Assembly (NCBI GenBank): GCA_037431425.1
Contig: GCA_037431425.1_4129.1
Strand: one strand, 5' to 3'
Length of the DNA stretch: 64,000 bases
Origin: a phage
Numbering within the stretch: the stretch's first letter is position 1; the number at the start of each line of letters is the position of its first letter. The position numbers were made by a program, and so were the translations under genes. This document shows positions 32-54,847 of the stretch, in pieces. Under the pieces are notes generated by a model. That model was not told the DNA's origin, made no database searches, and was given only the letters and a program-made list of their open reading frames with translations.

Positions 32-862
32 ATGTCATTGGAAAAATTAATCATTTCCGAATTCCGAAAGTACATCATGGATTGTGATAGAGATATCCAG
101 CGTAAATTCAATGAGTATCTTGACAAATATCCATATTTGATGTTTAATCCATTTGAAACTCAAACCGATGTCAAACTTGGATTTTACATTGGGTTTACTC
201 AACGAATTCTACAACAATATGAGATGAAACAAGCAGAGGTTTGGGTAGAAACTGATTCGAATGAGACGAATGTTTTTTACCTGTACTCTTATTATGCGGA
301 AATTGTTAGTTCAATGACACTAGAAGGGTATCTATTCGTCAAAACATCTGATATTGAAAAAATATACATAGAACCTGTATCTTTGGATATGGTTGCCCAG
401 CTTCCAACTATCCAGCAAATGGATGCGAATGAATTAACATATTCAGTATTTGAGTACCTTAATAGAGATGATTTAACTCAAGAAATTGAGAATATGGTTG
501 CATCATATACTTCAACTCTTATATCTAATGGTTCACTTAGAATAGAACTGATTTACGACGATACTAGTACTAATGCAGTACGAGGTACTCGAATTGGAAA
601 AGTTACTATACGTGTTGTCCACAATGATGTAGTACTTGGTTATATTTCGAAACGTGGTCATGACTTGTGTATGATTAACGCATATGTTATTGACCGAAAA
701 GAATGGAACGATTTAATGCAAAAAATCGTAGACGGAAGTGGAATTCGTGATATAATGAGTAATGAAACAGTGATAATTAATCCTGATATTGACTGTGATG
801 TATATTTTCCAGTTCCTGGATTTACACTACGTAATTTTGGTAAATTAAAGGATACAAAATGA
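32..862 (+). CDS. hypothetical protein (276 aa)
   Basis: Long track ORF; stop overlaps next start at 859. Confidence 0.6.
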   Translation: MSLEKLIISEFRKYIMDCDRDIQRKFNEYLDKYPYLMFNPFETQTDVKLGFYIGFTQRILQQYEMKQAEVWVETDSNETNVFYLYSYYAEIVSSMTLEGYLFVKTSDIEKIYIEPVSLDMVAQLPTIQQMDANELTYSVFEYLNRDDLTQEIENMVASYTSTLISNGSLRIELIYDDTSTNAVRGTRIGKVTIRVVHNDVVLGYISKRGHDLCMINAYVIDRKEWNDLMQKIVDGSGIRDIMSNETVIINPDIDCDVYFPVPGFTLRNFGKLKDTK

Positions 863-1149
863 AAATTTTAGAAGTTTTACTTGAAAAAGATGCATCTGGT
901 ACTCTTTATGTTGGTAATGATTTCAGTCCTGATCCAATTGATATGATGCAGCGTATTCAATCACTGACCCAATCAATTTCAGTTAAACAACCTTTCCTAA
1001 AAGAATTGGAAATTCATTGCGATAAAGACATGGAGCAGCATGATAATGTTATTTCTGATATCAAAAATCTGTTGACAAAGAACGGATATGTGGAGTATAA
1101 TCCTCCTATCGTAATCGTTATCCCTGGCTTCATGAGAGGAACATTGTAA
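859..1149 (+). CDS. hypothetical protein
   Basis: Track ORF; ATG at 859 after aaagga; co-oriented compact array. Confidence 0.55.
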   Translation: MKILEVLLEKDASGTLYVGNDFSPDPIDMMQRIQSLTQSISVKQPFLKELEIHCDKDMEQHDNVISDIKNLLTKNGYVEYNPPIVIVIPGFMRGTL

Positions 1150-1418
1150 TGACGAAAGAAGAAATGAAATCTCGCTTAAGCGAACTGAAGAAAGAACGCA
1201 AACTAGTCCGTTTGGACTGGGACATTCTTAACAAAAAAGATGAGCAATCATATGCTAATTGGAGTTCTGATAAAGTTCGCAATGAACGTAGTAAAGAAGA
1301 CAACAAACAGTTTATGGCACTGTCCAAGCGTTTATCTGCATTAAATAGTGAAATTACAGGTCTACAGAAAGAAATTATTTCGATTTTACGAGATGAGATT
1401 AAATCACTATATGAATAA
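1149..1418 (+). CDS. hypothetical protein, charged/coiled-coil-like
   Basis: Track ORF; start overlaps previous stop. Confidence 0.55.
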   Translation: MTKEEMKSRLSELKKERKLVRLDWDILNKKDEQSYANWSSDKVRNERSKEDNKQFMALSKRLSALNSEITGLQKEIISILRDEIKSLYE

Positions 1419-4516: not shown

Positions 4517-4917
4517 ATAATGAAGTTCAAATTATCATTACTCCACCTATACAAAGTCTGGATGTAACCATTAGTGATTTTTTGGAAAAATACTATGAAT
4601 GGTTTAATGAAGATTCAGTCATTTATAACCATTCATTACCTGATGGTTTCGTTGAGCTTATTGAATTAAATGCCAAATCACTATACTTCTGTGTTGAATA
4701 CAATGATTATATGACAGATGAAGCATATCGTTTTCGTTGTACATTGTATCCTAACCATTTTTCCATTGGTTATAAAGACTATCAGTACTGCACCACAAAC
4801 TATAGTGTAGAGGAAGAATTTCAGTACAATTTACTTTATCCTGATTTAGATTATACGATTGCAGTACTGTTGACTAAAATCATGGATTTTTATAAAGATA
4901 AATATAATGCAGCCTAA
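4513..4917 (+). CDS. hypothetical protein
   Basis: Track ORF; overlapping start/stop with neighbours. Confidence 0.5.
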   Translation: MNNEVQIIITPPIQSLDVTISDFLEKYYEWFNEDSVIYNHSLPDGFVELIELNAKSLYFCVEYNDYMTDEAYRFRCTLYPNHFSIGYKDYQYCTTNYSVEEEFQYNLLYPDLDYTIAVLLTKIMDFYKDKYNAA

Positions 4918-5092
4918 GACATTCGATGAGTGGTATCAAATACATTACAATATAAATGCAGCAGATATATACTATTTTAAGCTTGAATTGTATATATCAT
5001 TGCGTGACCCAGTTGAGTACTATAACAACATTATCAATTGTGATGATTTTGGTACATATTTTAGTATTGCAGTTATGGATAAAATAAGATGA
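4907..5092 (+). CDS. hypothetical small protein
   Basis: Track ORF. Confidence 0.45.
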   Translation: MQPKTFDEWYQIHYNINAADIYYFKLELYISLRDPVEYYNNIINCDDFGTYFSIAVMDKIR

Positions 5093-6114: not shown

Positions 6115-6239
<125 letters not shown>

Positions 6240-6246
6240 CAAAAGA

Positions 6247-6320
6247 CGGGGTATAGCACAATTGGATAGTGCAAGAGAATTCTAATCTCTAGGTTGGGGG
6301 TTCAAGTCCCTCTACCTCGG
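6247..6320 (+). tRNA. tRNA-Arg (anticodon UCU)
   Basis: Hand-folded: acceptor CGGGGTA/TACCTCG (one GU), D-stem GCAC/GTGC, anticodon stem AGAGA/TCTCT loop ATTCTAA, T-loop TTCAAGT. Confidence 0.75.
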
Positions 6321-6344
6321 CCTACTTCAATTAAAGGTTAAACC

Positions 6345-6509
6345 ATGACGCATGAAGAATGGATGAATGACATTAATTTTAGATATGCAGGTATCGGTAA
6401 CTGGAGAAAGTATCATTGGGAAATCATATCAGACCCAGCAGAATACGATAAACTTATGAATCATGAAGTGTATCCGTGGTTCTTTATTGAAATAATGGTA
6501 CGATTATGA
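6345..6509 (+). CDS. small protein, MTHEEWMNDINFRY family, copy 1 (54 aa)
   Basis: Manually found; SD aaaggtta; ATGA overlap with copy 2; near-identical N-terminus across three tandem copies. Confidence 0.5.
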   Translation: MTHEEWMNDINFRYAGIGNWRKYHWEIISDPAEYDKLMNHEVYPWFFIEIMVRL

Positions 6510-6666
6510 CACATGAAGAATGGATGAATGACATTAATTTTAGATATTCGGGTATCGGTAAATGGCTAAAGTATCATTGGGAATTCATTTCAGAGCCACA
6601 TCTGTATGATAAACTTATCAACGATTCTGCATATAAAATGTACTTAATTGAACTACTGGTACGAAC

Positions 6667-6670
<4 letters not shown>
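6506..6670 (+). CDS. small protein, MTHEEWMNDINFRY family, copy 2 (54 aa)
   Basis: Tandem paralog; ATGA overlaps on both sides. Confidence 0.5.
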
Positions 6671-6839
<169 letters not shown>

Positions 6840-6843
6840 AATC

Positions 6844-7284
<441 letters not shown>

Positions 7285-7312
7285 GTATCTTAACAACAGA
7301 AGGTATATTGAA

Positions 7313-7552
7313 ATGGGTAAGTATTTTGTGAGTTATAGTTATAATGTATCACGAAAGATTCCACGCGGTGACGGAATGGGATGGTCTTATGATGCATATA
7401 CTTTAAATGAGTCATGTATCATCGAATTACAAGAAAAAGACCTTGACATTTTAAAAATCAAACAATATATTCTTGATGTTGAATTGGCACATCGTACTGA
7501 TACCTATCCAGATGTAAACAACATCAGCATCTTAGTACTAACCAAAGTATAA
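7313..7552 (+). CDS. hypothetical small protein
   Basis: Track ORF 7283..7552 starts with TTG inside the promoter; ATG at 7313 with SD agaaggta is preferred. Confidence 0.5.
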   Translation: MGKYFVSYSYNVSRKIPRGDGMGWSYDAYTLNESCIIELQEKDLDILKIKQYILDVELAHRTDTYPDVNNISILVLTKV

Positions 7553-7622
7553 GATAAAAAGAACTTTACTAAATAATTCCACTGGAGATTAATATGTTTA
7601 AAGATGAACGTCCAGATTTGTA

Positions 7623-7661
<39 letters not shown>

Positions 7662-7667
7662 GAATTC

Positions 7668-8002
7668 CACAATCAGACGTATATGGTGTAAGTTACGTCG
7701 ATGCTATCCAGAACAAGATCTCTGGTACTCTAGGAAGTGGTGAATGTTAACCTAGACGGGTTTGATAATTGGACGATAGGCAATTATTACTTGACTAGCA
7801 GGTTGAAACTAGAGGTGACAGTCCTTCACCAAACTGGAAAGCCGGATGGACTTTTATTTAAAAGGGTAAGGCGTGGAAATATGTTTACTGTAGTTGCTTT
7901 TAGTAGCCTGTACGCCCCACGTCAAGGTAGTCGAAAGGCAAGTTAAAACGGGTGGTTATAAAGCTGAATTAACAGCGGCGTTTAAAAGCGTCACCATCCA
8001 TT
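7668..8002 (+). ncRNA. candidate structured non-coding transcript (or small basic protein)
   Basis: Promoter 7633..7661 upstream, T8 run at the end; locally GC-richer; track ORF 7737..7946 inside has a GTG start and unconvincing composition. Confidence 0.3.
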
Positions 8003-8023
8003 TTTTTAATTAAAGTTGGCTAT

Positions 8024-8390
<367 letters not shown>

Positions 8391-8401
<11 letters not shown>

Positions 8402-8420
8402 TATTCAGTACTGATATAAT
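8391..8420 (+). promoter_or_regulatory. sigma70-type promoter (TGGACA-N18-TATAAT) upstream of tRNA-Ser(GCU)
   Basis: CAGTACTG then TATAAT, 7 nt before the tRNA 5' end. Confidence 0.55.
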
Positions 8421-8426
8421 TAATTT

Positions 8427-8513
<87 letters not shown>

Positions 8514-8525
8514 TAAATTGTTCCA

Positions 8526-8612
<87 letters not shown>

Positions 8613-8662
8613 CTGATATTGTTATTATATGAGTTCTAACGATAATGAAACACTAGGAACAT

Positions 8663-8833
<171 letters not shown>

Positions 8834-8857
8834 ACGAAATTACAATAGGAAATTAAA

Positions 8858-9043
8858 ATGCAACTTTTAATTCTTTCAATATTGTATATTATTATAATGG
8901 TTCCGATATCAATACGTTTAATTACAGTTGAACGATTTTTATCGAAACATGGAAATAGATCTATGATATTTGTACCAATCGGGTTGATATTGTTTGGTAT
9001 ATTTTCATTTATAATGGGAATTAACGCTACATTCATTTCATAG
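8858..9043 (+). CDS. hypothetical small membrane protein
   Basis: Track ORF; hydrophobic; agga upstream; immediately after the tRNA cluster. Confidence 0.45.
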   Translation: MQLLILSILYIIIMVPISIRLITVERFLSKHGNRSMIFVPIGLILFGIFSFIMGINATFIS

Positions 9044-9052
9044 GAAACAAAT

Positions 9053-9310
<258 letters not shown>

Positions 9311-9412
9311 ATAAAAAGAACGAAAAGTAGACGGTCGTATTCAGTACTGAATCACCAGGGGAGGTTGTGATTCCCGATTCAGTAGCTTAAAAGCAGACCC
9401 GTATGTGCCTAA

Positions 9413-9465
<53 letters not shown>

Positions 9466-9466
9466 T

Positions 9467-9512
<46 letters not shown>

Positions 9513-9513
9513 T

Positions 9514-9647
<134 letters not shown>

Positions 9648-9649
9648 TA

Positions 9650-9833
<184 letters not shown>

Positions 9834-9913
9834 TAAATAATACAGTAAGATGGCCTCCCCTCCATATCATGAGAGTATAGAGACTTGTTGGTTATCTTAC
9901 TTTTAAACAAACT

Positions 9914-9987
9914 GCCTCAATAGCAAAATTGGTAATGCACACGTTTTGTAAGCGTGAGATTTTTCCGTTCGAGTCGGAATTGGGGCA
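9914..9987 (+). tRNA. tRNA-Thr (anticodon UGU), tentative
   Basis: Hand-folded: acceptor GCCTCAA/TTGGGGC (one GU), anticodon stem CACGT/GCGTG loop TTTGTAA, T-arm TTCCG-TTCGAGT-CGGAA; D-arm and variable loop slightly irregular. Confidence 0.55.
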
Positions 9988-10004
9988 CAAAATAAAGGCA
10001 CACT

Positions 10005-13988: not shown

Positions 13989-14774
13989 ATGAACAACATT
14001 TTCTTCAAAACTATTTCTTTCAAAAAAGAATCTTACTCATATTCCTATGTTGATGGTAATGTGCTTAATATTGTTCTGAATGGGGTAGATGTTCCTGTGA
14101 AATTCGACTCACATGAAGAAGCAGTCGATGGGGCAAAAGAATTGAATTCAATTCTCAATGGTGAAGATAGTCAAAAACAAAAGGTAAAATCCGATTTAGA
14201 TGCACTTTTGGAAAAAATCAAAAGTGGTGAAGTTCTTGAAATTTTAGAAAACTGTAATGAAAAACTACGTAAAGTAGTCAATGATGTTCATGACCAGATT
14301 CAAGAAAAAGCACTAGACCAAGCCTTTAAACATGTATCTAAAAAAGCTGAATCACGTATTGATAATATGGTCAAAAACATTGATGATGTACTTTCACATC
14401 TCTTTACCAAAGAATACGAATGTAACACAGACGAGCCAGTTACTGAATCTAAAAAAGAAAAACGCAACTTTGGTTCAAGTGATGATGTATTTGGTTTTTC
14501 TAATGTACGAACAAGTGCAGATGAACCAAAGGAAATCAGTGAGATGCTCATTGGTGACATGACAACAAAACAACTTCGTAATGAAATTGACAAGTTTGTT
14601 ACTACATCTATCAAATCTGAACGTGCACAAAATATGTTCAAAAGTATCAGTGCTAATTTTGGTACTGAAGCCACCGAACAAGCACTAAATGCATTTAAAG
14701 AATTGATTTATAATGTTGCCATTCGCAATCCAGAAAAAACACTCGAAGAAGTCCTACGAGAAAATTTCAAATAA
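13989..14774 (+). CDS. hypothetical acidic protein (261 aa)
   Basis: Track ORF; followed by bidirectional terminator. Confidence 0.6.
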   Translation: MNNIFFKTISFKKESYSYSYVDGNVLNIVLNGVDVPVKFDSHEEAVDGAKELNSILNGEDSQKQKVKSDLDALLEKIKSGEVLEILENCNEKLRKVVNDVHDQIQEKALDQAFKHVSKKAESRIDNMVKNIDDVLSHLFTKEYECNTDEPVTESKKEKRNFGSSDDVFGFSNVRTSADEPKEISEMLIGDMTTKQLRNEIDKFVTTSIKSERAQNMFKSISANFGTEATEQALNAFKELIYNVAIRNPEKTLEEVLRENFK

Positions 14775-14788
14775 TTAGATAAAAGTAA

Positions 14789-14815
14789 AGCCACTACTTT
14801 CGTAGTGGCTTTTTT
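14789..14815. terminator. bidirectional terminator between convergent genes
   Basis: AAGCCACTAC-TTTC-GTAGTGGCTT flanked by A-run and T-run. Confidence 0.65.
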
Positions 14816-14816
14816 A

Positions 14817-15971
14817 TTATGCGTTATAACCAACAATAACGACAGTACAATCAATTGGATTTACTACTTTAACAGTTACGTTATCATCTTCATCAAACTG
14901 TATTTCGCTATGAACTACCTGTTTGGTTGAAGAATACAATTGAACTTGTGGTAATACTTTACCATGTTCAGTAACTGGAATAGATAGTGAATACATAGAG
15001 TCTTCATCTTCTACCCAATCACTCTCCACATATTCCTTATGGAATGGGGTGGTGTGTAGTGTTTTGCCCATAATACGCAAAGACACAGGCGAATTATCGC
15101 TTTGGTTCACTGTAATATCACCTTTATCATCAACAGACATATCAACACCTATTTGGTGTAAATCATCGCTATATGCTTGGAGAACTAATTTATTACCACG
15201 TTTATGAACATCATATGGTACGACCGCAGAAAAAACTCCATCACCTGATGGTTGGAATTGCGTCAATTGAACCGGAGTAACATAATCAACATCCTCGCCG
15301 TGTTCTTGAACATCAAATTCAACAACTTTAGTGTTATAATATGGGGAAGTTAATGTGGCAGTACCTTTGCCTTTTTGTTGAATAGCATCTACTTGAATCG
15401 TAAACTCATCATCAACAATTTGTTTAGTGACGTATTCTTTCCCTTCTGGTAATACAAATTTAATTTCCATGCCATTGGTATCAATTTCAGAACCAGCATT
15501 GAATAGTTTACCACTAATTGATTTATCACCAACAAATACTGGTGAAATAATAATATTATCAATATCCCTATCAATAATACTACATTCTGGGGTATACATA
15601 TTATAAAGAGATTTTGAATTTCCTAAAATAGTTTTGTGTAGTAGGAATTTATAAACAAATCCAGTATCTGCCTCTTGCTGCTCATTAGTGTGTCCACGAA
15701 CAAAGAAACTGTTTCTATTAATTTCACTTAATAGTTCATCATTAGATTTACTATAATTTAGCAGATAACCTTTATTATCTTTAGTTGTTAGTTGGACTTT
15801 ACGGTAAATTATATTAGTTCTTGGGTCAACCAAATCATATAATTTGTGACTTCTCTGACGATAGATTCTAATATTTTTAAGTTTAGTTCCGTCATTAAGT
15901 ATCGCTCCATCAACGACATAACCACATTCGCCAAACTTGTATCTACCTGCTGACGCTATAGACCTTGACAT
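14817..15971 (-). CDS. hypothetical protein (384 aa); isolated minus-strand gene
   Basis: Long track ORF convergent with 13989..14774, sharing the hairpin at 14789..14815. Confidence 0.65.
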   Translation of the reverse strand: MSRSIASAGRYKFGECGYVVDGAILNDGTKLKNIRIYRQRSHKLYDLVDPRTNIIYRKVQLTTKDNKGYLLNYSKSNDELLSEINRNSFFVRGHTNEQQEADTGFVYKFLLHKTILGNSKSLYNMYTPECSIIDRDIDNIIISPVFVGDKSISGKLFNAGSEIDTNGMEIKFVLPEGKEYVTKQIVDDEFTIQVDAIQQKGKGTATLTSPYYNTKVVEFDVQEHGEDVDYVTPVQLTQFQPSGDGVFSAVVPYDVHKRGNKLVLQAYSDDLHQIGVDMSVDDKGDITVNQSDNSPVSLRIMGKTLHTTPFHKEYVESDWVEDEDSMYSLSIPVTEHGKVLPQVQLYSSTKQVVHSEIQFDEDDNVTVKVVNPIDCTVVIVGYNA

Positions 15972-16029
15972 TTATCCTTCCTTTGTTATAATTATTATAA
16001 CATATTTATTGTATAGATTAAAAAAATGA

Positions 16030-16058
16030 TTGACACGTGTAAGAAAAACTGATACTAT
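16030..16058 (+). promoter_or_regulatory. sigma70-type promoter (TTGACA-N17-TACTAT)
   Basis: Precedes ORF 16089 in the divergent intergenic region. Confidence 0.5.
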
Positions 16059-16088
16059 AACATTTAATTATTAAGTGAGGATTTTTGT

Positions 16089-17861: not shown

Positions 17862-18320
17862 ATGGACGTATTGGCTACCAATTTCAAACGTAACACAGAA
17901 GAGCGTGAAGGATACCTTAGTATTAGCGATGTAGTTGATGATAACTTCAAACAATACATTTTTAATAGTGCGATTAAGTTAAAATGCACAAAGGATGCAC
18001 CAGACCGTAGTTTTACTAAATGGATTGCATATTGGGAAGATTCACCAATTGCAATTGAAATGACAGTTATTACAACAGTTCTGGAAACGGGATATATCAA
18101 AGCTATTGTAGTTGATAAGAAAGTCAGATCTCTTGATGAAATTAACCCATATCCAGCCCGAAATTCTAAAGTTTTTGGGTTTTTGGTTGAAGGTAAGTTT
18201 ATGATTGAAAAAGATGCAAAAGAATATGTAATTAATATGCTACAAACACCAACCGAGAAAAAAAAGGTCGTTGACCAGAATGCTATTGATTCCATCAAGA
18301 AAGCATGGGGACTTAAGTAA
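17862..18320 (+). CDS. hypothetical protein
   Basis: Track ORF downstream of promoter 17801..17829; SD aagaggaa. Confidence 0.6.
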   Translation: MDVLATNFKRNTEEREGYLSISDVVDDNFKQYIFNSAIKLKCTKDAPDRSFTKWIAYWEDSPIAIEMTVITTVLETGYIKAIVVDKKVRSLDEINPYPARNSKVFGFLVEGKFMIEKDAKEYVINMLQTPTEKKKVVDQNAIDSIKKAWGLK

Positions 18321-21733: not shown

Positions 21734-21762
21734 AGGTTGGCATATGCCAACCTTTTTTATTG
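21734..21762 (+). terminator. rho-independent terminator after the sigma factor gene
   Basis: AAGGTTGGCATATGCCAACCTT followed by T-run. Confidence 0.65.
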
Positions 21763-22314
21763 GGACACAGAATAAATATATGATATAATAATTATGTACA
21801 ATCCTGTTGAATGCAGAAATGCATATAAATTAGAACCTGATCCTATCGAAAACGTAGATGGCAGATGAGCAGTTCAGCAGTGCGATGAGCAGAAGAAACC
21901 CGTCAGAAGTGGGCATAGTTTGAACCCCTCACGGCAATGCGGCTCAATAAAGAACTCCGATAAGCATACAGAGAGTTCCTAGATAGACATATAAGGAATC
22001 ACACCTTACCAGATTTGCTAAGGGAGTCTTGAAATAAGACAGCTTGAGCTTTGATTGTATAGAGTTTCAAGTGAGTGCTGGGATGAAAAGACCAGTGACC
22101 GTTGCATATGACCGTGATAGGGAGAAACAGAGCAACCCGCTTCCGTTTGTGATTGATCATTTTAACAATATAGATCCGTCCAAAATTCACGATACAATAA
22201 TATCCGATGCCATCAGCGTCAAGAAGAGACTTAATTGTCTCTTTTTTATTACTTTCATTCCCCTGTGGGGGGATGAAATAGTCCTCAACAAATCCCGTCA
22301 AGTATTAAAAGTCC

Positions 22315-32150: not shown

Positions 32151-32263
32151 TTTAACTTTGGGACAAACCTTCCTATAATGATATAATTTTTTTGTCAGTT
32201 TATTTAAATGACATATGAAATATAAATATTATTGTAAAGTTTATCTCTTATAGGAGTTATAAA

Positions 32264-32647
32264 ATGGTTGATAAATGGAATAAGAAAGAACCATCTCATG
32301 ATGTGGATATTTCTGACCTAGATAATGAACATAAACACAAGTACCTAGATTCACTAGGACTACTAAAGCCGGACCAAAGTATTGCACATGATCGTCCTTC
32401 ACGTGAAAAAGCATTCAGTCTGGAATCTCTAGGTCATGAGCTAAATCGTGTGTTTGAAGAACACCCAATCTATGTACGTGATATTATTGAGAAACTTAAA
32501 GTAACTCCTAAAGAGCACTTTAAAGCAACTGTACACTCTGCATTCAATGCATTACATGAAGCACTTAAGAAAACTCACAACCTTCGTAAGATTCATGATG
32601 ATATTGTAAATGCAATTGAAAGTGAAAAGCATAAGTTCAAAAAGTAA
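32264..32647 (+). CDS. hypothetical charged protein
   Basis: Track ORF; SD aggag; followed by PeSL-like module. Confidence 0.55.
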   Translation: MVDKWNKKEPSHDVDISDLDNEHKHKYLDSLGLLKPDQSIAHDRPSREKAFSLESLGHELNRVFEEHPIYVRDIIEKLKVTPKEHFKATVHSAFNALHEALKKTHNLRKIHDDIVNAIESEKHKFKK

Positions 32648-32686: not shown

Positions 32687-32711
32687 ATAAATATAATCAT
32701 AGAGAAAAAAC

Positions 32712-33983
32712 ATGAAATCTATGGAGAGAAATCAAATGCCAAGTAATTTTACTGATAAAAATGGTGGTAACATGGCAGGTCACTCGGATAAATGGAGTGA
32801 ACGCAACCGCCGCCCAAATAGTTACCAAGCAGGCCAAGGTTCCCGTGGCTCCAGAAACCAAGGAACGGGACTTGCTGGCAAGGCAAACGCAGAAGCAGGT
32901 GAAGTTAAGAGTACTGAGAACATGACTGAGCTAGAAAAGCTACGTTATGTTAATTCATTAGGACTTCTTAATGCTACACAAAAACAACGTCTAGCTGATA
33001 TGGAACGCGAAGAAAAAGAAAAAACAACTACTAAAGAAGAATCAAAACAGGAAGCACCGAAGCCGTCTAACCCTGTCAAAGAACTGTCTGATAAGTTAGG
33101 TAAGATCTTTGCAAATAAACCCCAACTTATTCAAGGTATTGTCAAAGAATTACAATCTGTACCTAAAGAAGAATTAAAAGTCAAAGCACAAGCTGTTCTG
33201 GATGCAATGAAAGGAAATACCAGTACTGAACCAACTGAAGTGTTCAGTACTATTATGCGTGCACTGGAAGGTAAACAACAAGGTGAAGAACGTGGTGATG
33301 AAGTAAGTCTTGAACGTATTCTTAAAACATTTGATAGTATTGGGAAAGAAGATCGTGTTAATGCACAACAGGTTAAAAATGTTCTAGCAAAATTGGAAAA
33401 CCGTCTAGAAGGTAAAGATGATAAGATTAAATTGGTATCTGATGTAGTTGACAATGCACTTAAATCTTATGTACAAGGTGAAAAGAGTCGTTTTGTGACC
33501 GCGATGGATGCAGCATTCAATACTATGAAAAAGTACGAAGCTGACCATGGTGAGAAGGTTACACCTGATGGTTATCTGATGCGTGATGATGAAGAAGGTG
33601 CAGTAGAACAGAATGATGTTCATTCTGACGAAGATATTGATGACATGGAAGCTGAACTGTCACAAGATCGCCAAATGACTGAAAAATCACACAACGAACT
33701 AAAGAAATTAATGCAGTGGGTCGCTGATGTTGGAGAAAAAGCGGGTGCTGATAAGAAAAGTATAAACCGAAATCTTAGTTGGATTAAAGATAAAGTAGGT
33801 AACAACGCTCGCAAACTACAAAAAGCATGGACTGATGTAGTGAATGGTGCAGTAGATATTGACGTTGAATCTGGTGAAGCATATGATTATGCATTGACTA
33901 CACTTGATGATTCTTTTCGTGACTACGAAAAAGGAAACGTGACTCCTTGGGAAAAGGACATAATGAGCAAATACGGCAAATGA
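32712..33983 (+). CDS. hypothetical highly charged, low-complexity protein (about 420 aa)
   Basis: Long track ORF flanked by PeSL-like modules; N-terminal start ambiguous (ATGs at 32712, 32721, 32736). Confidence 0.6.
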   Translation: MKSMERNQMPSNFTDKNGGNMAGHSDKWSERNRRPNSYQAGQGSRGSRNQGTGLAGKANAEAGEVKSTENMTELEKLRYVNSLGLLNATQKQRLADMEREEKEKTTTKEESKQEAPKPSNPVKELSDKLGKIFANKPQLIQGIVKELQSVPKEELKVKAQAVLDAMKGNTSTEPTEVFSTIMRALEGKQQGEERGDEVSLERILKTFDSIGKEDRVNAQQVKNVLAKLENRLEGKDDKIKLVSDVVDNALKSYVQGEKSRFVTAMDAAFNTMKKYEADHGEKVTPDGYLMRDDEEGAVEQNDVHSDEDIDDMEAELSQDRQMTEKSHNELKKLMQWVADVGEKAGADKKSINRNLSWIKDKVGNNARKLQKAWTDVVNGAVDIDVESGEAYDYALTTLDDSFRDYEKGNVTPWEKDIMSKYGK

Positions 33984-47290: not shown

Positions 47291-48436
47291 TTATTTTTTC
47301 CAAGGAAGTAACGAAGTTGGTATTTTGATAGGTATATTTGATGAAACAACATCAGGAAAATTTGCATCCCCACAAACATACAAATTATCGTCTTCGTCTA
47401 TCAATAATATATAGTTGTAACTTCTACAAAACCCATTTAAACCTCTTCCCTCTAATGCAGATAAATTTATTTCAGTGAATTGTGTTATATATGTTTCATT
47501 TGAACCAACACCACATTGACCATTAGCATTTATACCACAAGTAAGCAATTTATTATTGTTTTGAATTATACATGATGGTCCAGCAAGGTTTGTACCTAGT
47601 TCACCTACAACGTTGACCTCACCTTGTAATGATAAATTTGGAATCACTGTACTCATTGGGACACGAGATGTATTTCCAACACCTGCTTGTCCTGAACCAT
47701 TAGTGGATGCTACTTTAACAGTACCGTCATTAAGAAAAATATAAGATGTTTCGATTGTATTAACTGCTTGAGTAGCTGATGTTATTGACGTATCCTGTTT
47801 GAATTTGAGTACATTTGTTGTTGTCGAACCAGAGATATATGTAGCACCTGCGTACCAATATGTTCCATCCTGGAGTACTAAACCAGTACTTCTAATTGAA
47901 CACCCAGCACTTCGAACATTTTCTATATGACTATATGTAAAGGTTGATACAATTGAAGATTCACCATTACCAAATACCCCACCAGTACCTGCACCACAGA
48001 AAAACCATTTACCGTTTTTCAAAAATACACGCATACAAGCAGAAATAACCACACTATCAATATCACTTGCAGTTACACCAAAATCGGTAAAGAAATGAGT
48101 TATATCAATCCAATTGCCACCAGTATTTGATGGGAGATGTGGAATTACAACTCTAGTCCCTGTGTACCAGATTGTATCATCATCTTTAATAACAAGCGTA
48201 CCTTGAACACCCCCCCAATACCTGGTTACATTAGTATTAACAAGTGTCCACTCATTAGATGATTCCGTTGAGCCATTACCACCTTGACCATATGATGATG
48301 AACCGCACCAGTATAAATTGCCATTTTTATTTAAATAAAATTTTGCATCAGCCGAACATTGTAATCTGTATTTGAATACAGTTTTTGGTGCTGGTGCAAT
48401 ATTTGCATACTTAATCATTCTTCCAAAAGGTAACAT
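47291..48436 (-). CDS. RCC1-like repeat (beta-propeller-type) protein, paralog 1
   Basis: N-terminus MLPFGRMIKYANIAP shared by all seven; Gly/Ser/Thr/Asn-rich with GxNxxGQxG-type repeats; own SD gagggag and TATAAT upstream. Confidence 0.7.
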   Translation of the reverse strand: MLPFGRMIKYANIAPAPKTVFKYRLQCSADAKFYLNKNGNLYWCGSSSYGQGGNGSTESSNEWTLVNTNVTRYWGGVQGTLVIKDDDTIWYTGTRVVIPHLPSNTGGNWIDITHFFTDFGVTASDIDSVVISACMRVFLKNGKWFFCGAGTGGVFGNGESSIVSTFTYSHIENVRSAGCSIRSTGLVLQDGTYWYAGATYISGSTTTNVLKFKQDTSITSATQAVNTIETSYIFLNDGTVKVASTNGSGQAGVGNTSRVPMSTVIPNLSLQGEVNVVGELGTNLAGPSCIIQNNNKLLTCGINANGQCGVGSNETYITQFTEINLSALEGRGLNGFCRSYNYILLIDEDDNLYVCGDANFPDVVSSNIPIKIPTSLLPWKK

Positions 48437-48484
48437 AATTTCTCTCCCTCATTCATTATACTGTATTTAACCCAATTAAGAAAA

Positions 48485-48503
48485 GCCAGTATCAAGTACT
48501 GGT
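48485..48503 (-). terminator. intergenic hairpin between RCC1-like paralogs
   Basis: CCAGTA-TCAAG-TACTGG preceded by A-run on + (T-run on - strand). Confidence 0.55.
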
Positions 48504-48509
48504 ATTTTA

Positions 48510-49859
48510 TTATTGTAATGGAATTTCAGTGAGTGTTTTATATGTACTTCCGTTATACACCCCTCTCCAATATACTTTACCATCAGTACTAACCACTAAT
48601 AATCCATATGTTGTAAACCCAAGAGTACCACCAACATACATAGCATCTTTGATTCTAATACCAATGTCTTCATATGTAAATGACGCGACTGCACCCGCTT
48701 GCCATGAAGGACTAGCGTAGTAATCACTATAAACACCATGTGCTTTATATATTGATGTTGTTCCTGGTTCAAAAATGACAGTTCCACAGTAGTTCATTCG
48801 TATTTTAGTACTGGATGAAGTTGGTACATTTATACCTACATCATCTTTTATCCCTGTGGTTAGGACGTTAAAACCACCCGCCACACGGTTGACGTCATTC
48901 GCACCGATTAAATACATACCAACGTTGTAGCCCATATAAAACACACTAGAGCTTCCATTCCAGAAAGAAAAACCACCACCATTCCCACAGCGATATAGTT
49001 GTGAATTTGAGCAGTACATCATACCTTCGTTTGTCGCATCAAATTCATCTGCTTTTCCTATTGTAGCTACAGTAGTCCAAGTTTTAATTACTTGGTTTGT
49101 ACTAGCTGGTGTTTGTATACCATATCGTATATTATACCCTTTACCGACTATTGTACCATCTTCTAATTTGGCATAAAGTACAGGTCTATTACCAACAAAA
49201 TACATATTATTGTGTGACATGTCTATTGTGCATCTTAATGAAACTACTTTTTGTTTCAATTGATTATCTTTAGTAAAAGAAGTAAAGTAGTAATCTGATG
49301 TTGAGTTGTTTATTAAACCTTGTATTGACAACCCCATATACCAGATTTCTCCCTTACTATTCAAAGCTGCCAAAATACAACTATATTTTGAAGTGTATGT
49401 TGGGTTTACTGAAGTTGCTGGTCCTTTGTCATATCCACCACAGAATACCATCTCCACAACTTCACCTACGTTAGCAAAATAAGAAGATACATTGATAAAA
49501 CCATTTGTTATAAAAGGTGCTGTATTTATACTTGAATGTGTGAATATCCCATTTGCATATACACCACAAAAATGATATGAACCATCATTATCTTGGACTA
49601 TTATTCCATTTGATAGTAACCAAAAATTGTTTACATTTTTTCTTACTAATTCGATTCCTGCCCCATTAGTTGGCGTTATACCAAAAGAAACATATTTTGT
49701 TTGACCAATTCCATATAAATTTCCATTTGATGCTAATATTGCACCAAACCAATTACCACCACCATTCTTGTTATGACCCATACCTATAGAATCAAATTTC
49801 TTAACAGTAGGAGCTTGTACTTTGTTCCCATAATTCACCATTCTTCCAAAAGGTAACAT
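48510..49859 (-). CDS. RCC1-like repeat protein, paralog 2 (449 aa)
   Basis: Conserved N-terminus MLPFGRMVNYGN; upstream aaggaggg SD and TATAAT; terminator hairpin. Confidence 0.7.
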   Translation of the reverse strand: MLPFGRMVNYGNKVQAPTVKKFDSIGMGHNKNGGGNWFGAILASNGNLYGIGQTKYVSFGITPTNGAGIELVRKNVNNFWLLSNGIIVQDNDGSYHFCGVYANGIFTHSSINTAPFITNGFINVSSYFANVGEVVEMVFCGGYDKGPATSVNPTYTSKYSCILAALNSKGEIWYMGLSIQGLINNSTSDYYFTSFTKDNQLKQKVVSLRCTIDMSHNNMYFVGNRPVLYAKLEDGTIVGKGYNIRYGIQTPASTNQVIKTWTTVATIGKADEFDATNEGMMYCSNSQLYRCGNGGGFSFWNGSSSVFYMGYNVGMYLIGANDVNRVAGGFNVLTTGIKDDVGINVPTSSSTKIRMNYCGTVIFEPGTTSIYKAHGVYSDYYASPSWQAGAVASFTYEDIGIRIKDAMYVGGTLGFTTYGLLVVSTDGKVYWRGVYNGSTYKTLTEIPLQ

Positions 49860-49906
49860 ATTTCCCTCCTTTATTCATTATACTATATTTAATACTAAAA
49901 GAAAAA

Positions 49907-49925
49907 GCCAGTACAGAGTACTGGC
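49907..49925 (-). terminator. intergenic hairpin between RCC1-like paralogs
   Basis: GCCAGTAC-AGA-GTACTGGC; T-run on - strand. Confidence 0.6.
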
Positions 49926-49931
49926 ATTATT

Positions 49932-51083
49932 TTAAATTGGTGAATCTTCAACAAATATAGTACTAGCAGTACCACCTGATACTGGGTTAGTACCACTTGA
50001 ATATATTTTGTTTCCATCTGTCATATATGTTTTACCATAGCAACTTTGGATTTTAACATCTTTGAAATTCAAATCAGGAGTAATAGATTTAGTGTAAGTT
50101 AATACGTTAGTAGTTGAACCTGTACTTAATTGTCCATAGTATGAAGTTGCAGAGTTATTACCAGCAACGTATACGCCAGTATCAGTAATAACAAAGTTCG
50201 AGTAATATCCGTACCCATATCCTATATCTAATATATTTCCTTGTGGTTGATTTACCACTGCTGTTGTCAATATTTGGGTTGTAGCCCCAGTACCAGTCGC
50301 TGCCTGACCATATGTTTGGTCACCACCTGTGTACACTGAAACAACTGACGTGCTTTTGTTTCTTGCAATACCTTGCACCATTCCATTAATTGTACTTATA
50401 AATGCAATAGTGTTAACAGTTGCTGGTAATCTGGATGACAATGTGAAGAATTTATAAGAAGTAGGACCGTCAGTGTTCCCATAAACTTCACCTGTGTAAT
50501 ATAATCTACCACTTTCAGCAATAAATGAACACATGTTTATACCTGCAATAATCCTTTTCGGTATCGCACCAGTTGGTATAATTGATTGTACTAAAGTAGA
50601 AAAACTACTAGTATAAGAATAATTACCAAGCTGTCCTCTTGTGTTATAACCACCACACCAAATGGTCCCATTACTCATAAGTATTGAAATGAAGTTATTT
50701 CCTAGTGATATTTCTGTAATTGTTCCTTGTGATTTGACTTGGTTAATAACGGTTTGCATAGAAGTCCATGCATTAACAGATGACGTACCCATACACACAT
50801 TGTATTGTTGTCCTGTGTATTGATATGTCCCATCTGACTTGTGAATCATTGTAGCATACTGACCACACCATACATCAGTGACATCAGATGCAGTTACAGT
50901 CCATGATGATCTGGCTATATTGTCACCTAAACCCAACTGACCATTTGAATTGTTACCACGGGTGTATAACTTACCATTACTACCCAATACCATAACCCAG
51001 TTATACCCTGCAACTAATTTTTTAATGGCAGCAGGGGATGGTGCAACATTCCCATAATCAAACATTCTAACAAAAGGTAACAT
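49932..51083 (-). CDS. RCC1-like repeat protein, paralog 3
   Basis: N-terminus MLPFVRMFDYGNVAP; repeats such as GNNSNGQLGLGDN. Confidence 0.7.
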   Translation of the reverse strand: MLPFVRMFDYGNVAPSPAAIKKLVAGYNWVMVLGSNGKLYTRGNNSNGQLGLGDNIARSSWTVTASDVTDVWCGQYATMIHKSDGTYQYTGQQYNVCMGTSSVNAWTSMQTVINQVKSQGTITEISLGNNFISILMSNGTIWCGGYNTRGQLGNYSYTSSFSTLVQSIIPTGAIPKRIIAGINMCSFIAESGRLYYTGEVYGNTDGPTSYKFFTLSSRLPATVNTIAFISTINGMVQGIARNKSTSVVSVYTGGDQTYGQAATGTGATTQILTTAVVNQPQGNILDIGYGYGYYSNFVITDTGVYVAGNNSATSYYGQLSTGSTTNVLTYTKSITPDLNFKDVKIQSCYGKTYMTDGNKIYSSGTNPVSGGTASTIFVEDSPI

Positions 51084-51130
51084 ATTTCCCTCCTTTATTC
51101 ATTATACTATATTTAATACTAAAAGAAAAA

Positions 51131-51150
51131 GCCAGTACTTGAGTACTGGC
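51131..51150 (-). terminator. intergenic hairpin between RCC1-like paralogs
   Basis: GCCAGTACTTGAGTACTGGC; T-run on - strand. Confidence 0.6.
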
Positions 51151-51157
51151 TTTCTTA

Positions 51158-52348
51158 TTACAATTTTCTAGGTGTATCCAGAACATATCTATTTGTTTTA
51201 GGGCCACCATCATCATAAGTTCCGGTTGAATATATATTTTTCATATCAGCAGTTAGGAAAGTACGCAACGAACCGCGATATATTTTTATTTTATCATACA
51301 TAGAATATGTTATTTCTGACGGCAATGGACATGCAGTAAATTTACCAATGGTAGCATCATAACCAACACCCAATGTACCAGCATAACTACTCGCATTTAA
51401 ACCAGTTGCATATACACCTGCACTCGTAACTAGTATACTAGATTGTGCTGGGTATCCAGTATGGATTGAATAATAAGTACCAGGTGGCAATGTGGCACTA
51501 TTATTTCCTAAAACTCCATTAACATTGCTAGATGTAGTTTTATTTCCCCATGCTCCATTATTAGCTAATCCACCAACTAGAAACTGACGTGCTCCTGTAC
51601 TTGGATTCTCTACTAAAGCACTGACAGCACCAAATGAACAAACAGTATATTGTAATGTTTTTGTATATGTGGTACTTGGCTGATATAAAGTATATTCATT
51701 AAATGGTGTCCATGTGGTACTAGTACTTATGCCAGATGTAATACCACCAATATATAAATTATTTTGTTTATCAAACAACATTACACAGTTATATGTTGAC
51801 ATTATTTGTGCAATATCAACATCTGGTGTTACAGCTTTAACAAATGAGCCATCGGTTATTTGTTGAGTTTTTCCAGTACCATCTGCGAATTGTCTAGCAC
51901 TATTCCACCCTGTACTCCATATTGTATTATTATCCATTAAGAAAGTAAACCACGTAGTACCTGCATACATTTGTTTAATTGAAGTACTTGAACTTTGTTT
52001 GTACAAATTTTCAATATATTGGTTATAACTTAAAAACGTAGTAGTACTAGTTTCTAAACCAATATGACTACCATATCCACAATAAAAATAATTTAAGTCA
52101 TTATCTTGAACTAACAAAGTTCCTTGTGTCATCCAGCAATCTTTGATATTTTCTCTAATTAATGTCCACGACCTTACTGCATTATTATTTCCTCTACCAA
52201 ACTTCCCCCAACTATTACTGCCTCGTGCGTATAGTTGACCGTCGGTATAAAGTACAACAACCTCAGTATCAGTTGGTATTATTTTCTTAATTTGAAGTGG
52301 GACGGGTACAATATTCCCGTACTTAACTATTCTTCCAAAAGGTAACAT
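51158..52348 (-). CDS. RCC1-like repeat protein, paralog 4
   Basis: N-terminus MLPFGRIVKYGNIVP; repeat GSNSWGKFGRGNN. Confidence 0.7.
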   Translation of the reverse strand: MLPFGRIVKYGNIVPVPLQIKKIIPTDTEVVVLYTDGQLYARGSNSWGKFGRGNNNAVRSWTLIRENIKDCWMTQGTLLVQDNDLNYFYCGYGSHIGLETSTTTFLSYNQYIENLYKQSSSTSIKQMYAGTTWFTFLMDNNTIWSTGWNSARQFADGTGKTQQITDGSFVKAVTPDVDIAQIMSTYNCVMLFDKQNNLYIGGITSGISTSTTWTPFNEYTLYQPSTTYTKTLQYTVCSFGAVSALVENPSTGARQFLVGGLANNGAWGNKTTSSNVNGVLGNNSATLPPGTYYSIHTGYPAQSSILVTSAGVYATGLNASSYAGTLGVGYDATIGKFTACPLPSEITYSMYDKIKIYRGSLRTFLTADMKNIYSTGTYDDGGPKTNRYVLDTPRKL

Positions 52349-52391
52349 ATCCCCTCCTTATTCATTATACTATATTTAATCAAAAATAAAA

Positions 52392-52410
52392 GCCAGTATC
52401 AAGTACTGGC
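52392..52410 (-). terminator. intergenic hairpin between RCC1-like paralogs
   Basis: GCCAGTATCAAGTACTGGC. Confidence 0.6.
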
Positions 52411-52424
52411 ATAGTTTTATAATA

Positions 52425-53531: not shown

Positions 53532-53576
53532 ATCCCCTCCTTATTCATTATACTATATTTAATACAAATAAGAAAA

Positions 53577-53595
53577 GCCAGTATCAAGTACTGGC
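53577..53595 (-). terminator. intergenic hairpin between RCC1-like paralogs
   Basis: GCCAGTATCAAGTACTGGC. Confidence 0.6.
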
Positions 53596-53601
53596 CTATA
53601 T

Positions 53602-54842: not shown

Positions 54843-54847
54843 TATTA

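What the first reader, a model, noticed from the sequence alone, without database searches (positions are those of the whole stretch)
14817..15971. Isolated minus-strand 384-aa gene inside a + strand early array
It is the only substantial minus-strand gene in the first 47 kb; it converges on 13989..14774 at a bidirectional terminator and diverges from 16089 across an A/T-rich intergenic region with promoters. It may be a later-expressed or moron-like gene, possibly a structural or adhesin-like protein.
Basis: inference. Interest (0 to 1): 0.4.

Follow-up and report, generated by a model that had tools for sequence, protein, structure and literature searches.

The report
Late-expressed Ig-domain virion surface protein
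The lone opposite-strand gene is real and encodes an accessory particle protein of a giant E. coli phage, made of a clade-specific N-terminal anchor plus three antibody-like (Ig-like) domains; it appears to be switched on late, relatives carry it in their virions, and it is a known kind of protein whose exact place on the particle is still unassigned.

Summary
14817..15971(-) is an intact 384-aa gene and the only real minus-strand gene in the first 47 kb. It ends at a bidirectional terminator (14787..14812) and is separated from 16089(+) by a 117-nt, 20% GC spacer holding two sigma70-type promoters. The window is an Asteriusvirus jumbo coliphage (121Q/PBECO4 group).

Orthologs were found in purified virions by mass spectrometry in two genera (phAPEC6 gp077, CBB_496). 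A conserved T4-type late-promoter element (AATAAATA-N3-TATAAT) lies 12 nt before the ribosome-binding site (22 nt before the ATG). In phAPEC6 this motif precedes 32% of virion genes against 2% of other ORFs.

The protein is a basic ~125-aa N-terminal module plus three acidic Ig-like beta-sandwiches. The N-module is always N-terminal in 91 protein clusters, fused to zero to many Big_1/Big_2/invasin-type Ig domains. It also exists alone as phAPEC6 gp347, the virion protein with the highest MS coverage. It has no relative among solved structures.

The closest relative, ph0011, keeps only a decayed remnant, so the gene is dispensable. The best reading is a late, non-essential, surface-exposed adhesin-like decoration protein that works like Hoc or pb10 but is not homologous to Hoc. 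Whether it sits on the capsid or the tail is unresolved. It is not a moron. Interest is modest.

The parts
14817..15971 (-). CDS, 384 aa, 43.3 kDa, pI 5.1: virion accessory protein. Ortholog of 121Q gp155, phAPEC6 gp077 and CBB_496; PHROG 10468.
   Evidence: (E=3e-162); purifying selection
15594..15971 (-). N-terminal anchor module (residues 1 to ~126), basic (pI 9.6) and the most conserved part. Homologous to the stand-alone 125-aa virion protein phAPEC6 gp347 (PHROG 33171).
15306..15560 (-). Ig-like beta-sandwich module 1 (residues ~138-222), acidic
   Evidence: AF2 model; Foldseek
15057..15284 (-). Ig-like beta-sandwich module 2 (residues ~230-305), acidic and variable
14820..15044 (-). Ig-like beta-sandwich module 3 (residues ~310-384), acidic and the least conserved
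15975..15982 (-). Shine-Dalgarno AGGAAGGA, 3 nt before the ATG
15994..16010 (-). Predicted T4-type late promoter AATAAATAtgtTATAAT with no -35 element. Invariant in 121Q, UE-S1, phAPEC6 and the ph0011 remnant; the same block is found in CBB and Yen9-04 orthologs.
14787..14812 (.). Bidirectional intrinsic terminator shared with the convergent gene 13989..14774
   Evidence: annotated in UE-S1
15965..15992 (+). Sigma70 consensus promoter P1 for the rightward early genes. Its -35 TTGACA is the reverse complement of the target's codons 1-3 (ATG TCA AGG). Its -10 is one arm of the palindrome TATAAT-A-ATTATA, whose other arm is the TATAAT of the minus-strand element.
16030..16058 (+). Second sigma70-type promoter P2 (TTGACA-17-TACTAT), 30 nt before the ATG at 16089
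13989..14774 (+). Convergent neighbour, 261 aa, Lys/Glu-rich. Also a virion protein (phAPEC6 gp078c, CBB_494) and adjacent to the target across genera. It has no late motif of its own.

Best explanation
The gene encodes a non-essential accessory protein of the phage particle. Late in infection, RNA polymerase carrying the phage's gp55-like late sigma factor starts at the AATAAATA element on the minus strand. It makes a monocistronic mRNA of about 1.2 kb that stops at the bidirectional hairpin at 14787..14812. During early infection the same spacer drives rightward transcription from two sigma70 promoters, so the opposite orientation and the terminator keep the gene out of the early programme. 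The protein has two parts. A basic, conserved ~125-residue N-terminal module docks it onto the virion. This module is used across Rak2-like jumbo phages as an N-terminal anchor, either alone (gp347, very well represented in the virion proteome) or carrying one to many Ig domains. Three acidic, faster-evolving Ig-like domains project roughly 10 nm from the surface and probably make weak, multivalent contacts with carbohydrates on cells or mucus, as proposed for Hoc and other phage Ig-domain proteins. Shown: the gene and its signals; virion presence of orthologs; the domain architecture; the modular anchor family; natural loss in ph0011. Inferred: late timing, surface exposure, adhesive role, and the docking site. 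I favour the capsid, where unassigned hexon-centre and ridge densities exist, but a tail or neck location is not excluded.
For: Virion presence comes from MS on phAPEC6 gp077 (10 unique peptides, 37.8%) and CBB_496 (4 peptides, 17.5%). For late timing, TAAATA-N3-TATAAT occurs 8 times in the window against 0.12 expected by chance. All 8 are on the minus strand: 7 before RCC1-like virion genes and 1 before the target. In phAPEC6, ATAAATA precedes 20/62 virion genes against 10/505 other ORFs (p=4e-14), and TAAATA precedes 36/62 against 28/505 (p=5e-23). The genes with the motif include the major capsid and sheath genes. The block is invariant in relatives and present in other genera. The same motif was predicted as the late promoter in CBB and GAP32 (PMC5259590), and a gp55-like sigma is annotated in phAPEC6. 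For architecture, the AF2 model has pLDDT 78.5 with three beta-sandwiches; Foldseek matches tandem Ig arrays, SiiE, Bap and phage 'surface protein' paralogs. For the anchor, exhaustive HMMER finds 91 clusters with the module always at residues 1 to ~125 and protein lengths from 76 to 1859 aa. The cargo is Big_1, Big_2 x7, Invasin_D3 or Fn3. The paralog gp347 is the anchor alone, with 75.2% MS coverage. The conservation gradient runs N > Ig1 > Ig2/Ig3, and the charge split is pI 9.6 for the anchor against 4.3-4.9 for the Ig modules. For dispensability, the ph0011 remnant has two internal deletions. Unassigned decoration and fibre densities on phAPEC6 and 121Q are reported.
Against: There are no transcript data for any Asteriusvirus, so the timing rests on motif association alone. 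In this window the element also reads as an extended -10 (TGtTATAAT), so host sigma70 might use it. That TG is not conserved in 121Q or UE-S1. The paralog gp347 lacks the late motif. The target's own Ig modules hit no Pfam family. The anchor has no structural relative in the PDB (best E=0.6), so the docking site is not supported by homology. MS coverage of 37.8% is lower than that of the most fully covered virion proteins, which fits poorly with hundreds of copies on the capsid, although coverage is a poor proxy for copy number. No binding data exist.
Confidence: 0.62

Rival explanations
1. Tail or neck accessory protein. The anchor docks on the sheath, collar or baseplate rather than the capsid, and the protein forms the base of, or decorates, the 'hairy' fibres seen at annular positions along the tail of phAPEC6, 121Q and CBB.
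For: Fibres and a decoration protein at two tail levels are unassigned in phAPEC6. Long fibres surround the sheath of 121Q and whiskers cover the CBB tail. Intermediate MS coverage would suit tens to about 150 copies. Big_2 domains are common on major tail proteins and tail fibres.
Against: The 'major tail protein' label on the CBB_112 paralog rests only on its Big_2 domain. CBB hairs are about 119 nm long, far longer than three Ig domains. The anchor-only paralog gp347 has the highest coverage in the proteome, which would suit a high-copy capsid site. The anchor-family genes examined lie away from tail genes.
Confidence: 0.25
2. Capsid cement rather than adhesin. The protein's main role is mechanical stabilisation of the very large T=28 shell, and the Ig domains bridge neighbouring capsomers.
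For: An elongated protein forming a hexagonal network over the capsid is unassigned. [quoted passage not shown]
Against: [quoted passage not shown] The distal Ig modules evolve fastest, which is unusual for a lattice contact. Family cargo varies from 0 to more than 7 Ig domains, which is incompatible with a fixed bridging geometry.
Confidence: 0.07
3. Internal or ejected virion protein. It would be packaged in the head (for example with the inner body) and delivered to the cell, with the Ig folds serving another purpose.
For: phAPEC6 and 121Q have an inner body of unknown composition. The neighbour gp078c is a charged, probably helical virion protein with no late promoter of its own.
Against: Ig/BIg arrays are typically extracellular or surface modules. 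Structural neighbours are adhesins and phage surface proteins. The cargo length varies over more than 1700 residues within the family.
Confidence: 0.04
4. Moron: a recently acquired, independently transcribed accessory gene that benefits the host or the infection and is not part of the particle.
For: It has its own promoter and terminator and the opposite orientation. It is absent from the closest relative ph0011.
Against: GC content equals that of the genome. It is conserved full-length at 36-41% identity in Rak2-like phages of other host genera, and CBB and Yen9-04 keep the same local arrangement. Orthologs are in virions. ph0011 holds a decayed remnant, so this is a loss, not a primary absence.
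Confidence: 0.02

Closest known systems
T4 Hoc (highly immunogenic outer capsid protein)
   Same: Similar size (376 vs 384 aa). A string of Ig-like domains plus one non-Ig virion-binding module. Late-expressed and dispensable. Found on a gp23-family capsid with an unassigned molecule at each hexon centre in 121Q and phAPEC6.
   Different: No detectable homology by hhalign (probability 0.4% for the whole family, 4% for the anchor). Hoc is not among the top Foldseek hits. Domain order is reversed: the conserved non-Ig module is N-terminal here and C-terminal in Hoc (the Hoc order is from established knowledge). The location is not demonstrated.
T5 pb10 decoration protein
   Same: Same order of parts: an N-terminal virion-binding domain followed by Ig-like domain(s). 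Non-essential (from established knowledge and the review PMC7602432 listed).
   Different: Three Ig modules instead of one. The anchor model matches no solved chain at all (best E=0.6), so there is no evidence of common ancestry.
Phage Ig-like domain additions (Fraser et al. 2006; Big_2, I-set, FN3 on tail, decoration and fibre proteins)
   Same: Ig domains appended to a virion protein. A short form and a long form of the same base module both occur in the particle (gp347 and gp077). A weak carbohydrate-binding role is proposed.
   Different: Here the short and long forms are separate paralogous genes about 214 kb apart in phAPEC6, not products of a programmed frameshift.
121Q gp155 / phAPEC6 gp077 / CBB_496 / GAP32_475 (PHROG 10468 'virion structural protein')
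   Same: Direct orthologs at 78-86% identity within Asteriusvirus and about 39% in Mimasvirus. Same length and same opposite-strand position.
   Different: None of substance. The window's allele is a distinct variant (86% identity to the nearest phage record, UE-S1).

Membership tests
PHROG 10468 / 121Q gp155-like virion structural protein | Full-length sequence homology | tested here: met
   E=3.2e-162 over residues 1-383 of a 384-position profile; 61 phage records with at least 80% coverage
PHROG 10468 / 121Q gp155-like virion structural protein | Protein present in purified virions | not testable with these tools
   Shown for orthologs only, by published MS: phAPEC6 gp077 and CBB_496
T4 Hoc family | Sequence or profile homology to Hoc | tested here: not met
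   hhalign probability 0.4% (A2 vs T4 Hoc) and 4.4% (A6 vs Hoc); no Hoc PHROG hit
T4 Hoc family | Tandem Ig-like domains | tested here: met
   Three beta-sandwich modules in the AF2 model; Foldseek matches Ig arrays with E from 3e-5 to 1e-3
T4 Hoc family | C-terminal capsid-binding domain | tested here: not met
   The conserved non-Ig module is N-terminal in all 91 clusters
T4 Hoc family | One molecule at the centre of each major-capsid-protein hexamer | not testable with these tools
   Hexon-centre density exists in 121Q and phAPEC6 but is not assigned to a gene
T4 Hoc family | Dispensable for propagation | tested here: met
   ph0011 carries only a remnant with two deletions
Pfam bacterial Ig-like domains (Big_1, Big_2, Invasin_D3) | Profile match above the gathering score | tested here: not met
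   No Pfam family at E<=1 for the target. Proteins sharing its anchor do match (Big_2 up to 362 bits; Invasin_D3 117 bits).
Pfam bacterial Ig-like domains (Big_1, Big_2, Invasin_D3) | Ig-like beta-sandwich fold resembling bacterial adhesin domains | tested here: inconclusive
   Foldseek hits SiiE BIg, Bap and phage inverse-autotransporter-like proteins, but with low global TM because the inter-domain geometry is flexible
T4-type late promoter | TATAAATA-like element about 20-50 nt before the ATG, without a -35 element | tested here: met
   AATAAATA at 16003..16010(-), a 7/8 match. The -35 position reads TTTAAT, 3/6.
T4-type late promoter | Motif associated with late/structural genes in the same phage group | tested here: met
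   Fisher p=4e-14 and 5e-23 in phAPEC6; predicted independently in CBB and GAP32
T4-type late promoter | gp55-like late sigma encoded by the phage | tested here: inconclusive
   Annotated in phAPEC6 (gp237c). The gene lies outside this 64-kb window.
T4-type late promoter | Transcript appears late, with a 5' end just downstream of the element | not testable with these tools
   No transcriptome of an Asteriusvirus was found
Moron | Own promoter and terminator | tested here: met
Moron | Patchy, recent acquisition with atypical composition; not a virion component | tested here: not met
   GC 33.8% vs 33.7% for the window. Conserved across genera, with conserved position in CBB and Yen9-04. Orthologs are virion proteins.

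The most novel reading that the evidence does not exclude
The ~125-residue N-module is an undescribed docking fold specific to Rak2-like jumbo phages. The anchor-only protein (gp347) and anchor-plus-Ig proteins such as this one would compete for, or co-assemble at, the same repeated site on the T=28 capsid. That would be a two-gene equivalent of the frameshift-generated short and long forms of other phage structural proteins. It would identify the hexon-centre and ridge decoration densities in 121Q and phAPEC6 that have so far not been assigned to genes. It would also explain why cargo can range from 0 to more than 7 Ig domains and be swapped by recombination.
Probability: 0.3. Interest if true: 0.55.

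Novelty: new member of a known kind. Interest (0 to 1): 0.3.

Why it matters
For the scan, this resolves the finding as an ordinary late structural gene placed inside an early-gene array; nothing about it is exotic. Three by-products may be useful. (1) It gives a concrete pair of candidates, gp347-like and gp077-like proteins, for the decoration and fibre densities that two cryo-EM studies of this capsid type could not assign to genes. (2) ph0011 is a natural deletion mutant, which would allow a difference-map or adsorption comparison in a phage group without a genetic system. (3) The N-terminal anchor, which tolerates very different cargos, could serve as a display scaffold on jumbo phage particles, as Hoc does in T4.

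Tried and rejected
1. Paralogy with the seven tandem minus-strand genes at 47.3-56.0 kb, which have similar sizes: rejected. Best BLASTP E=3.6, and those genes are RCC1-like propeller proteins.

2. Pfam on the target: no hit.

3. PDB sequence search with the family profile: nothing below E=0.9.

5. Foldseek of the anchor alone against the PDB: no match (best E=0.6, TM<0.3) despite pLDDT 84.5 and pTM 0.78. The docking site therefore could not be inferred.

6. Word-indexed homolog search: found only 10 and then 4 clusters. tblastn against phages and exhaustive HMMER were needed to see the real spread.

7. phiKp24 high-resolution structure: that capsid has a 597-aa MCP and no decoration proteins, so it is uninformative.

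8. Homology to T4 Hoc: rejected.

9. Positive selection on the Ig part: not supported. Pairwise dN/dS for the Ig region is 0.10-0.19, only slightly above the anchor in comparisons with the window allele.

10. Transcriptome literature for this genus: none found.

11. Using MS coverage as a copy-number proxy to choose between capsid and tail: judged too unreliable. The candidate tube proteins encoded next to the sheath gene have very low coverage.

Full report
**1. What is in the sequence**

The ORF 14817..15971 on the minus strand is present as described: 384 aa with an ATG start. It has a strong ribosome-binding site, AGGAAGGA, 3 nt before the ATG. GC skew, positive throughout the first 47 kb, turns negative only in the 15-16 kb bin, as expected for one real gene on the other strand.

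A greedy ORF map shows no other credible minus-strand gene before 47 kb. The remaining minus ORFs are 67-85 aa fillers, plus a 153-aa shadow of the + strand gene 17862..18320. The annotations of three relatives agree for the regions examined.

The gene converges on 13989..14774 at an 11-bp hairpin with 5 G-C pairs (14787..14812), flanked by A- and T-runs. The hairpin is stable on both strands (-18.1 and -17.7 kcal/mol; z -4.8 and -6.5).

The gene diverges from 16089 across a 117-nt spacer of 20.5% GC. The spacer carries a perfect sigma70 consensus TTGACA-16-TATAAT (15965..15992) and a second TTGACA-17-TACTAT (16030..16058), both pointing right.

**2. Whose genome**

Megablast places the window in Asteriusvirus, the ~350-kb 'Rak2-like' jumbo coliphages (121Q, PBECO4, phAPEC6). 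Identity is about 85% to most members and about 98% to phage ph0011. The first 47 kb corresponds to their array of small early genes, which includes an RpoD-like sigma factor gene.

**3. The product is a virion protein**

PHROGs assigns the protein to family 10468, 'virion structural protein' (E=3e-162). RefSeq calls 121Q gp155 'virion structural protein; Ig-domain'.

The phAPEC6 ortholog is gp077. In the published ESI-MS/MS proteome of purified phAPEC6 particles, gp077 was detected with 10 unique peptides and 37.8% coverage. The ortholog of the convergent neighbour, gp078c, gave 4 peptides and 21.4% (PMC7247149 Table 1).

In a different genus, the ortholog CBB_496 was detected in virions with 4 peptides and 17.5%, and the neighbour CBB_494 with 1 peptide (PMC5259590 Table 4).

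**4. Expression signals**

The upstream regions of the target and of the seven RCC1-like genes at 47-56 kb were compared; orthologs of several of those genes are in the phAPEC6 virion proteome. All eight share TAAATA-N3-TATAAT, which ends 15-22 nt before the ATG, and none has a -35 element.

The motif occurs exactly 8 times in the 64-kb window, all on the minus strand and all at these eight genes. Chance expectation is 0.12, and allowing one mismatch adds no site. Because the seven RCC1 copies are paralogs, the independent datum is the target's own perfect copy.

I then assembled the whole phAPEC6 genome and asked which genes carry the core motif 12-70 nt upstream:
- ATAAATA precedes 20 of 62 MS-confirmed virion genes against 10 of 505 other ORFs (p=4e-14).
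- TAAATA precedes 36 of 62 against 28 of 505 (p=5e-23).
- Genes with the motif include the major capsid protein, sheath, scaffold, baseplate wedge and gp245.
- The ten 'other' genes with ATAAATA all lie between 93 and 207 kb, the part of the genome that holds the DNA-metabolism and structural genes, and none lies in the arrays of small early genes.

The block AATAAATA-N3-TATAATAATTATA is invariant in 121Q, UE-S1, phAPEC6 and even the ph0011 remnant, while the rest of the spacer varies. The equivalent block sits at the same distance from the ATG in the CBB and Yen9-04 orthologs.

The CBB authors had already predicted ATAAATA plus A/T-rich sequence as the late promoter of CBB and GAP32, noting its likeness to T4's TATAAATA. 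phAPEC6 also encodes a gp55-like 'sigma factor for late transcription'.

Late expression is therefore well supported by inference, but no transcript data exist for this genus. One caveat: in this window the element also reads as an extended -10 (TGtTATAAT). That TG is not conserved in 121Q or UE-S1.

A structural curiosity: the -35 of the rightward consensus promoter is the reverse complement of the target's invariant first three codons (Met-Ser-Arg). The palindrome TATAAT-A-ATTATA supplies a TATAAT to both strands.

**5. Architecture of the protein**

An AlphaFold2 model (mean pLDDT 78.5) is all-beta. It has an N-terminal module (about residues 20-116) and three well-predicted beta-sandwiches (about 138-222, 230-305 and 310-384).

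Foldseek against the PDB returns strings of Ig/FnIII domains: DIP, filamin, the Salmonella adhesin SiiE, Sidekick and Bap. Against viral models it returns orthologs, Yersinia-phage paralogs labelled 'possible surface protein ... cell adhesion domain', and inverse-autotransporter-like phage proteins. The target itself hits no Pfam family and no PDB sequence.

Conservation falls from the N-module (54-92% identity) to the last Ig module (28-78%). The N-module is basic (pI 9.6) and the Ig modules are acidic (pI 4.3-4.9).

dN/dS is 0.11-0.16 overall. Against the window's allele it is 0.05-0.09 for the N-module and 0.14-0.19 for the Ig part. This is purifying selection, somewhat relaxed distally, with no sign of overall positive selection.

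**6. The N-module is a portable anchor**

A second tblastn match in phAPEC6 is gp347, a 125-aa protein about 30% identical to residues 3-124 of the target (blastp E=7e-14). It corresponds to PHROG 33171. gp347 has the highest sequence coverage in the phAPEC6 virion proteome (75.2%, 8 peptides).

An exhaustive HMMER search with a profile of the module found 91 cluster representatives, 83 of them below 1e-10. In every one the module occupies the extreme N-terminus. Total lengths run from 76 to 1859 aa: about 124 (stand-alone), 210-240, 300-345, 375-390, many around 600-650, and a few above 800.

The C-terminal cargo of sampled members is Big_1, Big_2 (up to seven in tandem), Invasin_D3, HYDIN/VesB-type Ig or Fn3-like domains.

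Among sequenced phages the module is confined to the Rak2-like supergroup, commonly with two to four matching places per genome. The Big_2 cargo, by contrast, is the widespread phage Ig domain of Hoc-like, major-tail and fibre proteins.

One paralog, CBB_112 (anchor plus one Big_2), is labelled 'major tail protein' only because of its Big_2 domain; it is also a virion protein by MS.

A deeper alignment gave a confident model of the module (pLDDT 84.5, pTM 0.78), yet Foldseek found no relative among solved structures (best E=0.6, TM<0.3). The pattern fits a conserved docking module displaying variable Ig cargo. What it docks to cannot be read from homology.

**7. Dispensability and turnover**

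ph0011 is about 98-99% identical to the window in the flanking genes, but has only 269 bp between them. That remnant keeps, in order:
- the promoter and codons 1-21,
- codons ~128-150,
- the last codons and the terminator.

So it has suffered two internal deletions. It is 88% identical to the UE-S1 allele but only 72% to the window's allele. The cassette, from terminator loop to the next start codon, has therefore also been exchanged by recombination between otherwise near-identical genomes.

In SD-6_S16 the gene is about 58 nt shorter and split into two ORFs. This could be a real mutation or an assembly error. Sixty other records hold an intact copy. The gene is functional but not essential for propagation.

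**8. Not a moron**

GC content equals that of the genome. Full-length homologs at 36-41% identity occur in phages of Cronobacter, Pectobacterium, Serratia, Yersinia, Erwinia, Salmonella, Klebsiella and Xanthomonas.

In CBB (Mimasvirus) and Yen9-04 (Eneladusvirus) the ortholog is again a lone opposite-strand gene beside the ortholog of the neighbouring virion protein. The paralogs gp347 and CBB_112 are also lone opposite-strand genes.

**9. Most likely mechanism**

This is a late, monocistronic, terminator-insulated gene for a virion-surface accessory protein.
- The basic N-terminal anchor docks on the particle.
- The three acidic Ig-like domains extend outward and make weak, multivalent contacts. 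This is the role proposed for Hoc and for phage Ig domains in general.
- Loss of the protein is tolerated.

Two cryo-EM studies of this capsid type describe densities not assigned to genes: a molecule or flexible fibre at each hexon centre, a ridge network, a penton decoration, and fibres on head and sheath. I therefore favour a capsid site, with the well-represented anchor-only gp347 as a possible partner or competitor. A tail or neck site remains a serious rival.

**10. Comparison with known systems**

It works like T4 Hoc and T5 pb10, being an Ig-bearing, dispensable decoration protein, but it is not a Hoc family member:
- hhalign finds no homology.
- The binding module is at the opposite end of the protein.
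- The anchor matches no solved structure.

It is an ortholog of already catalogued, MS-verified 'virion structural proteins'. The finding itself is thus a new member of a known kind. The undescribed element is the modular anchor family.

**11. Verdict**

Interest is modest (0.3). The best residual novelty is that this protein and gp347 may be the unassigned decoration proteins of the T=28 jumbo capsid.

Noticed in passing
window 47291..55969 (-): Seven tandem paralogous genes (368-449 aa) encoding RCC1-like beta-propeller proteins. Six of the seven are followed by a near-identical terminator hairpin, and all are preceded by the TAAATA-N3-TATAAT element. Orthologs of several of them are in the phAPEC6 virion proteome, where the authors suggested a DNA-condensation or inner-body role. 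They are unrelated in sequence to the target.
   Followed up: partly
window 21735..22040 (+): After the sigma-factor gene and its terminator there is a site, GAATAAATAtatgaTATAATAATTAT, that closely resembles the target's promoter. It is followed by about 250 nt with no ORF over 28 aa and higher GC. There is no Rfam match and no unusual folding energy (z -0.48). The equivalent gap is unannotated in phAPEC6.
   Followed up: partly
window 13989..14774 (+): The convergent neighbour (261 aa, Lys/Glu-rich) is also a virion protein by MS in phAPEC6 and CBB, and it stays adjacent to the target across genera. Yet it lies on the early strand and has no late-promoter motif of its own.
   Followed up: partly
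window 15965..16010: The -35 hexamer of a perfect sigma70 consensus promoter for the rightward genes is the reverse complement of the target's invariant first codons (ATG TCA AGG). The palindrome TATAAT-A-ATTATA gives both strands a TATAAT, so an early and a putative late promoter overlap back to back.
   Followed up: partly
L002 (ph0011, OP557969) 4777..5046 vs window 14775..16088: The window and ph0011 are about 98-99% identical in the flanks, but the cassette between the terminator loop and the next start codon is only about 72% identical (88% to UE-S1). In ph0011 it is reduced to a remnant by two deletions. This is a local recombination hot spot with gene loss.
   Followed up: yes
window 32222..32228 and 32687..32693 (+): Two perfect TATAAATA elements lie directly upstream of 32264..32647 and 32712..33983. 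The equivalent phAPEC6 genes, gp037c and gp035c, are MS-detected virion proteins and have the same elements upstream. So some late-type promoters also sit on the early strand of this array. The gene equivalence is by matching length and position only.
   Followed up: partly
window 6153..9988 (+): Six tRNA genes (Ser-TGA, Arg-TCT, Ser-GCT, Met, Asn, Thr-TGT) are interspersed among the small early genes.
   Followed up: no
L015 (Salmonella phage SD-6_S16, OR699182) 301..1397: The ortholog is about 58 nt shorter and annotated as two ORFs (242 and 97 aa). Three sister isolates have it intact. It is undetermined whether this is a real frameshift or an assembly error.
   Followed up: partly
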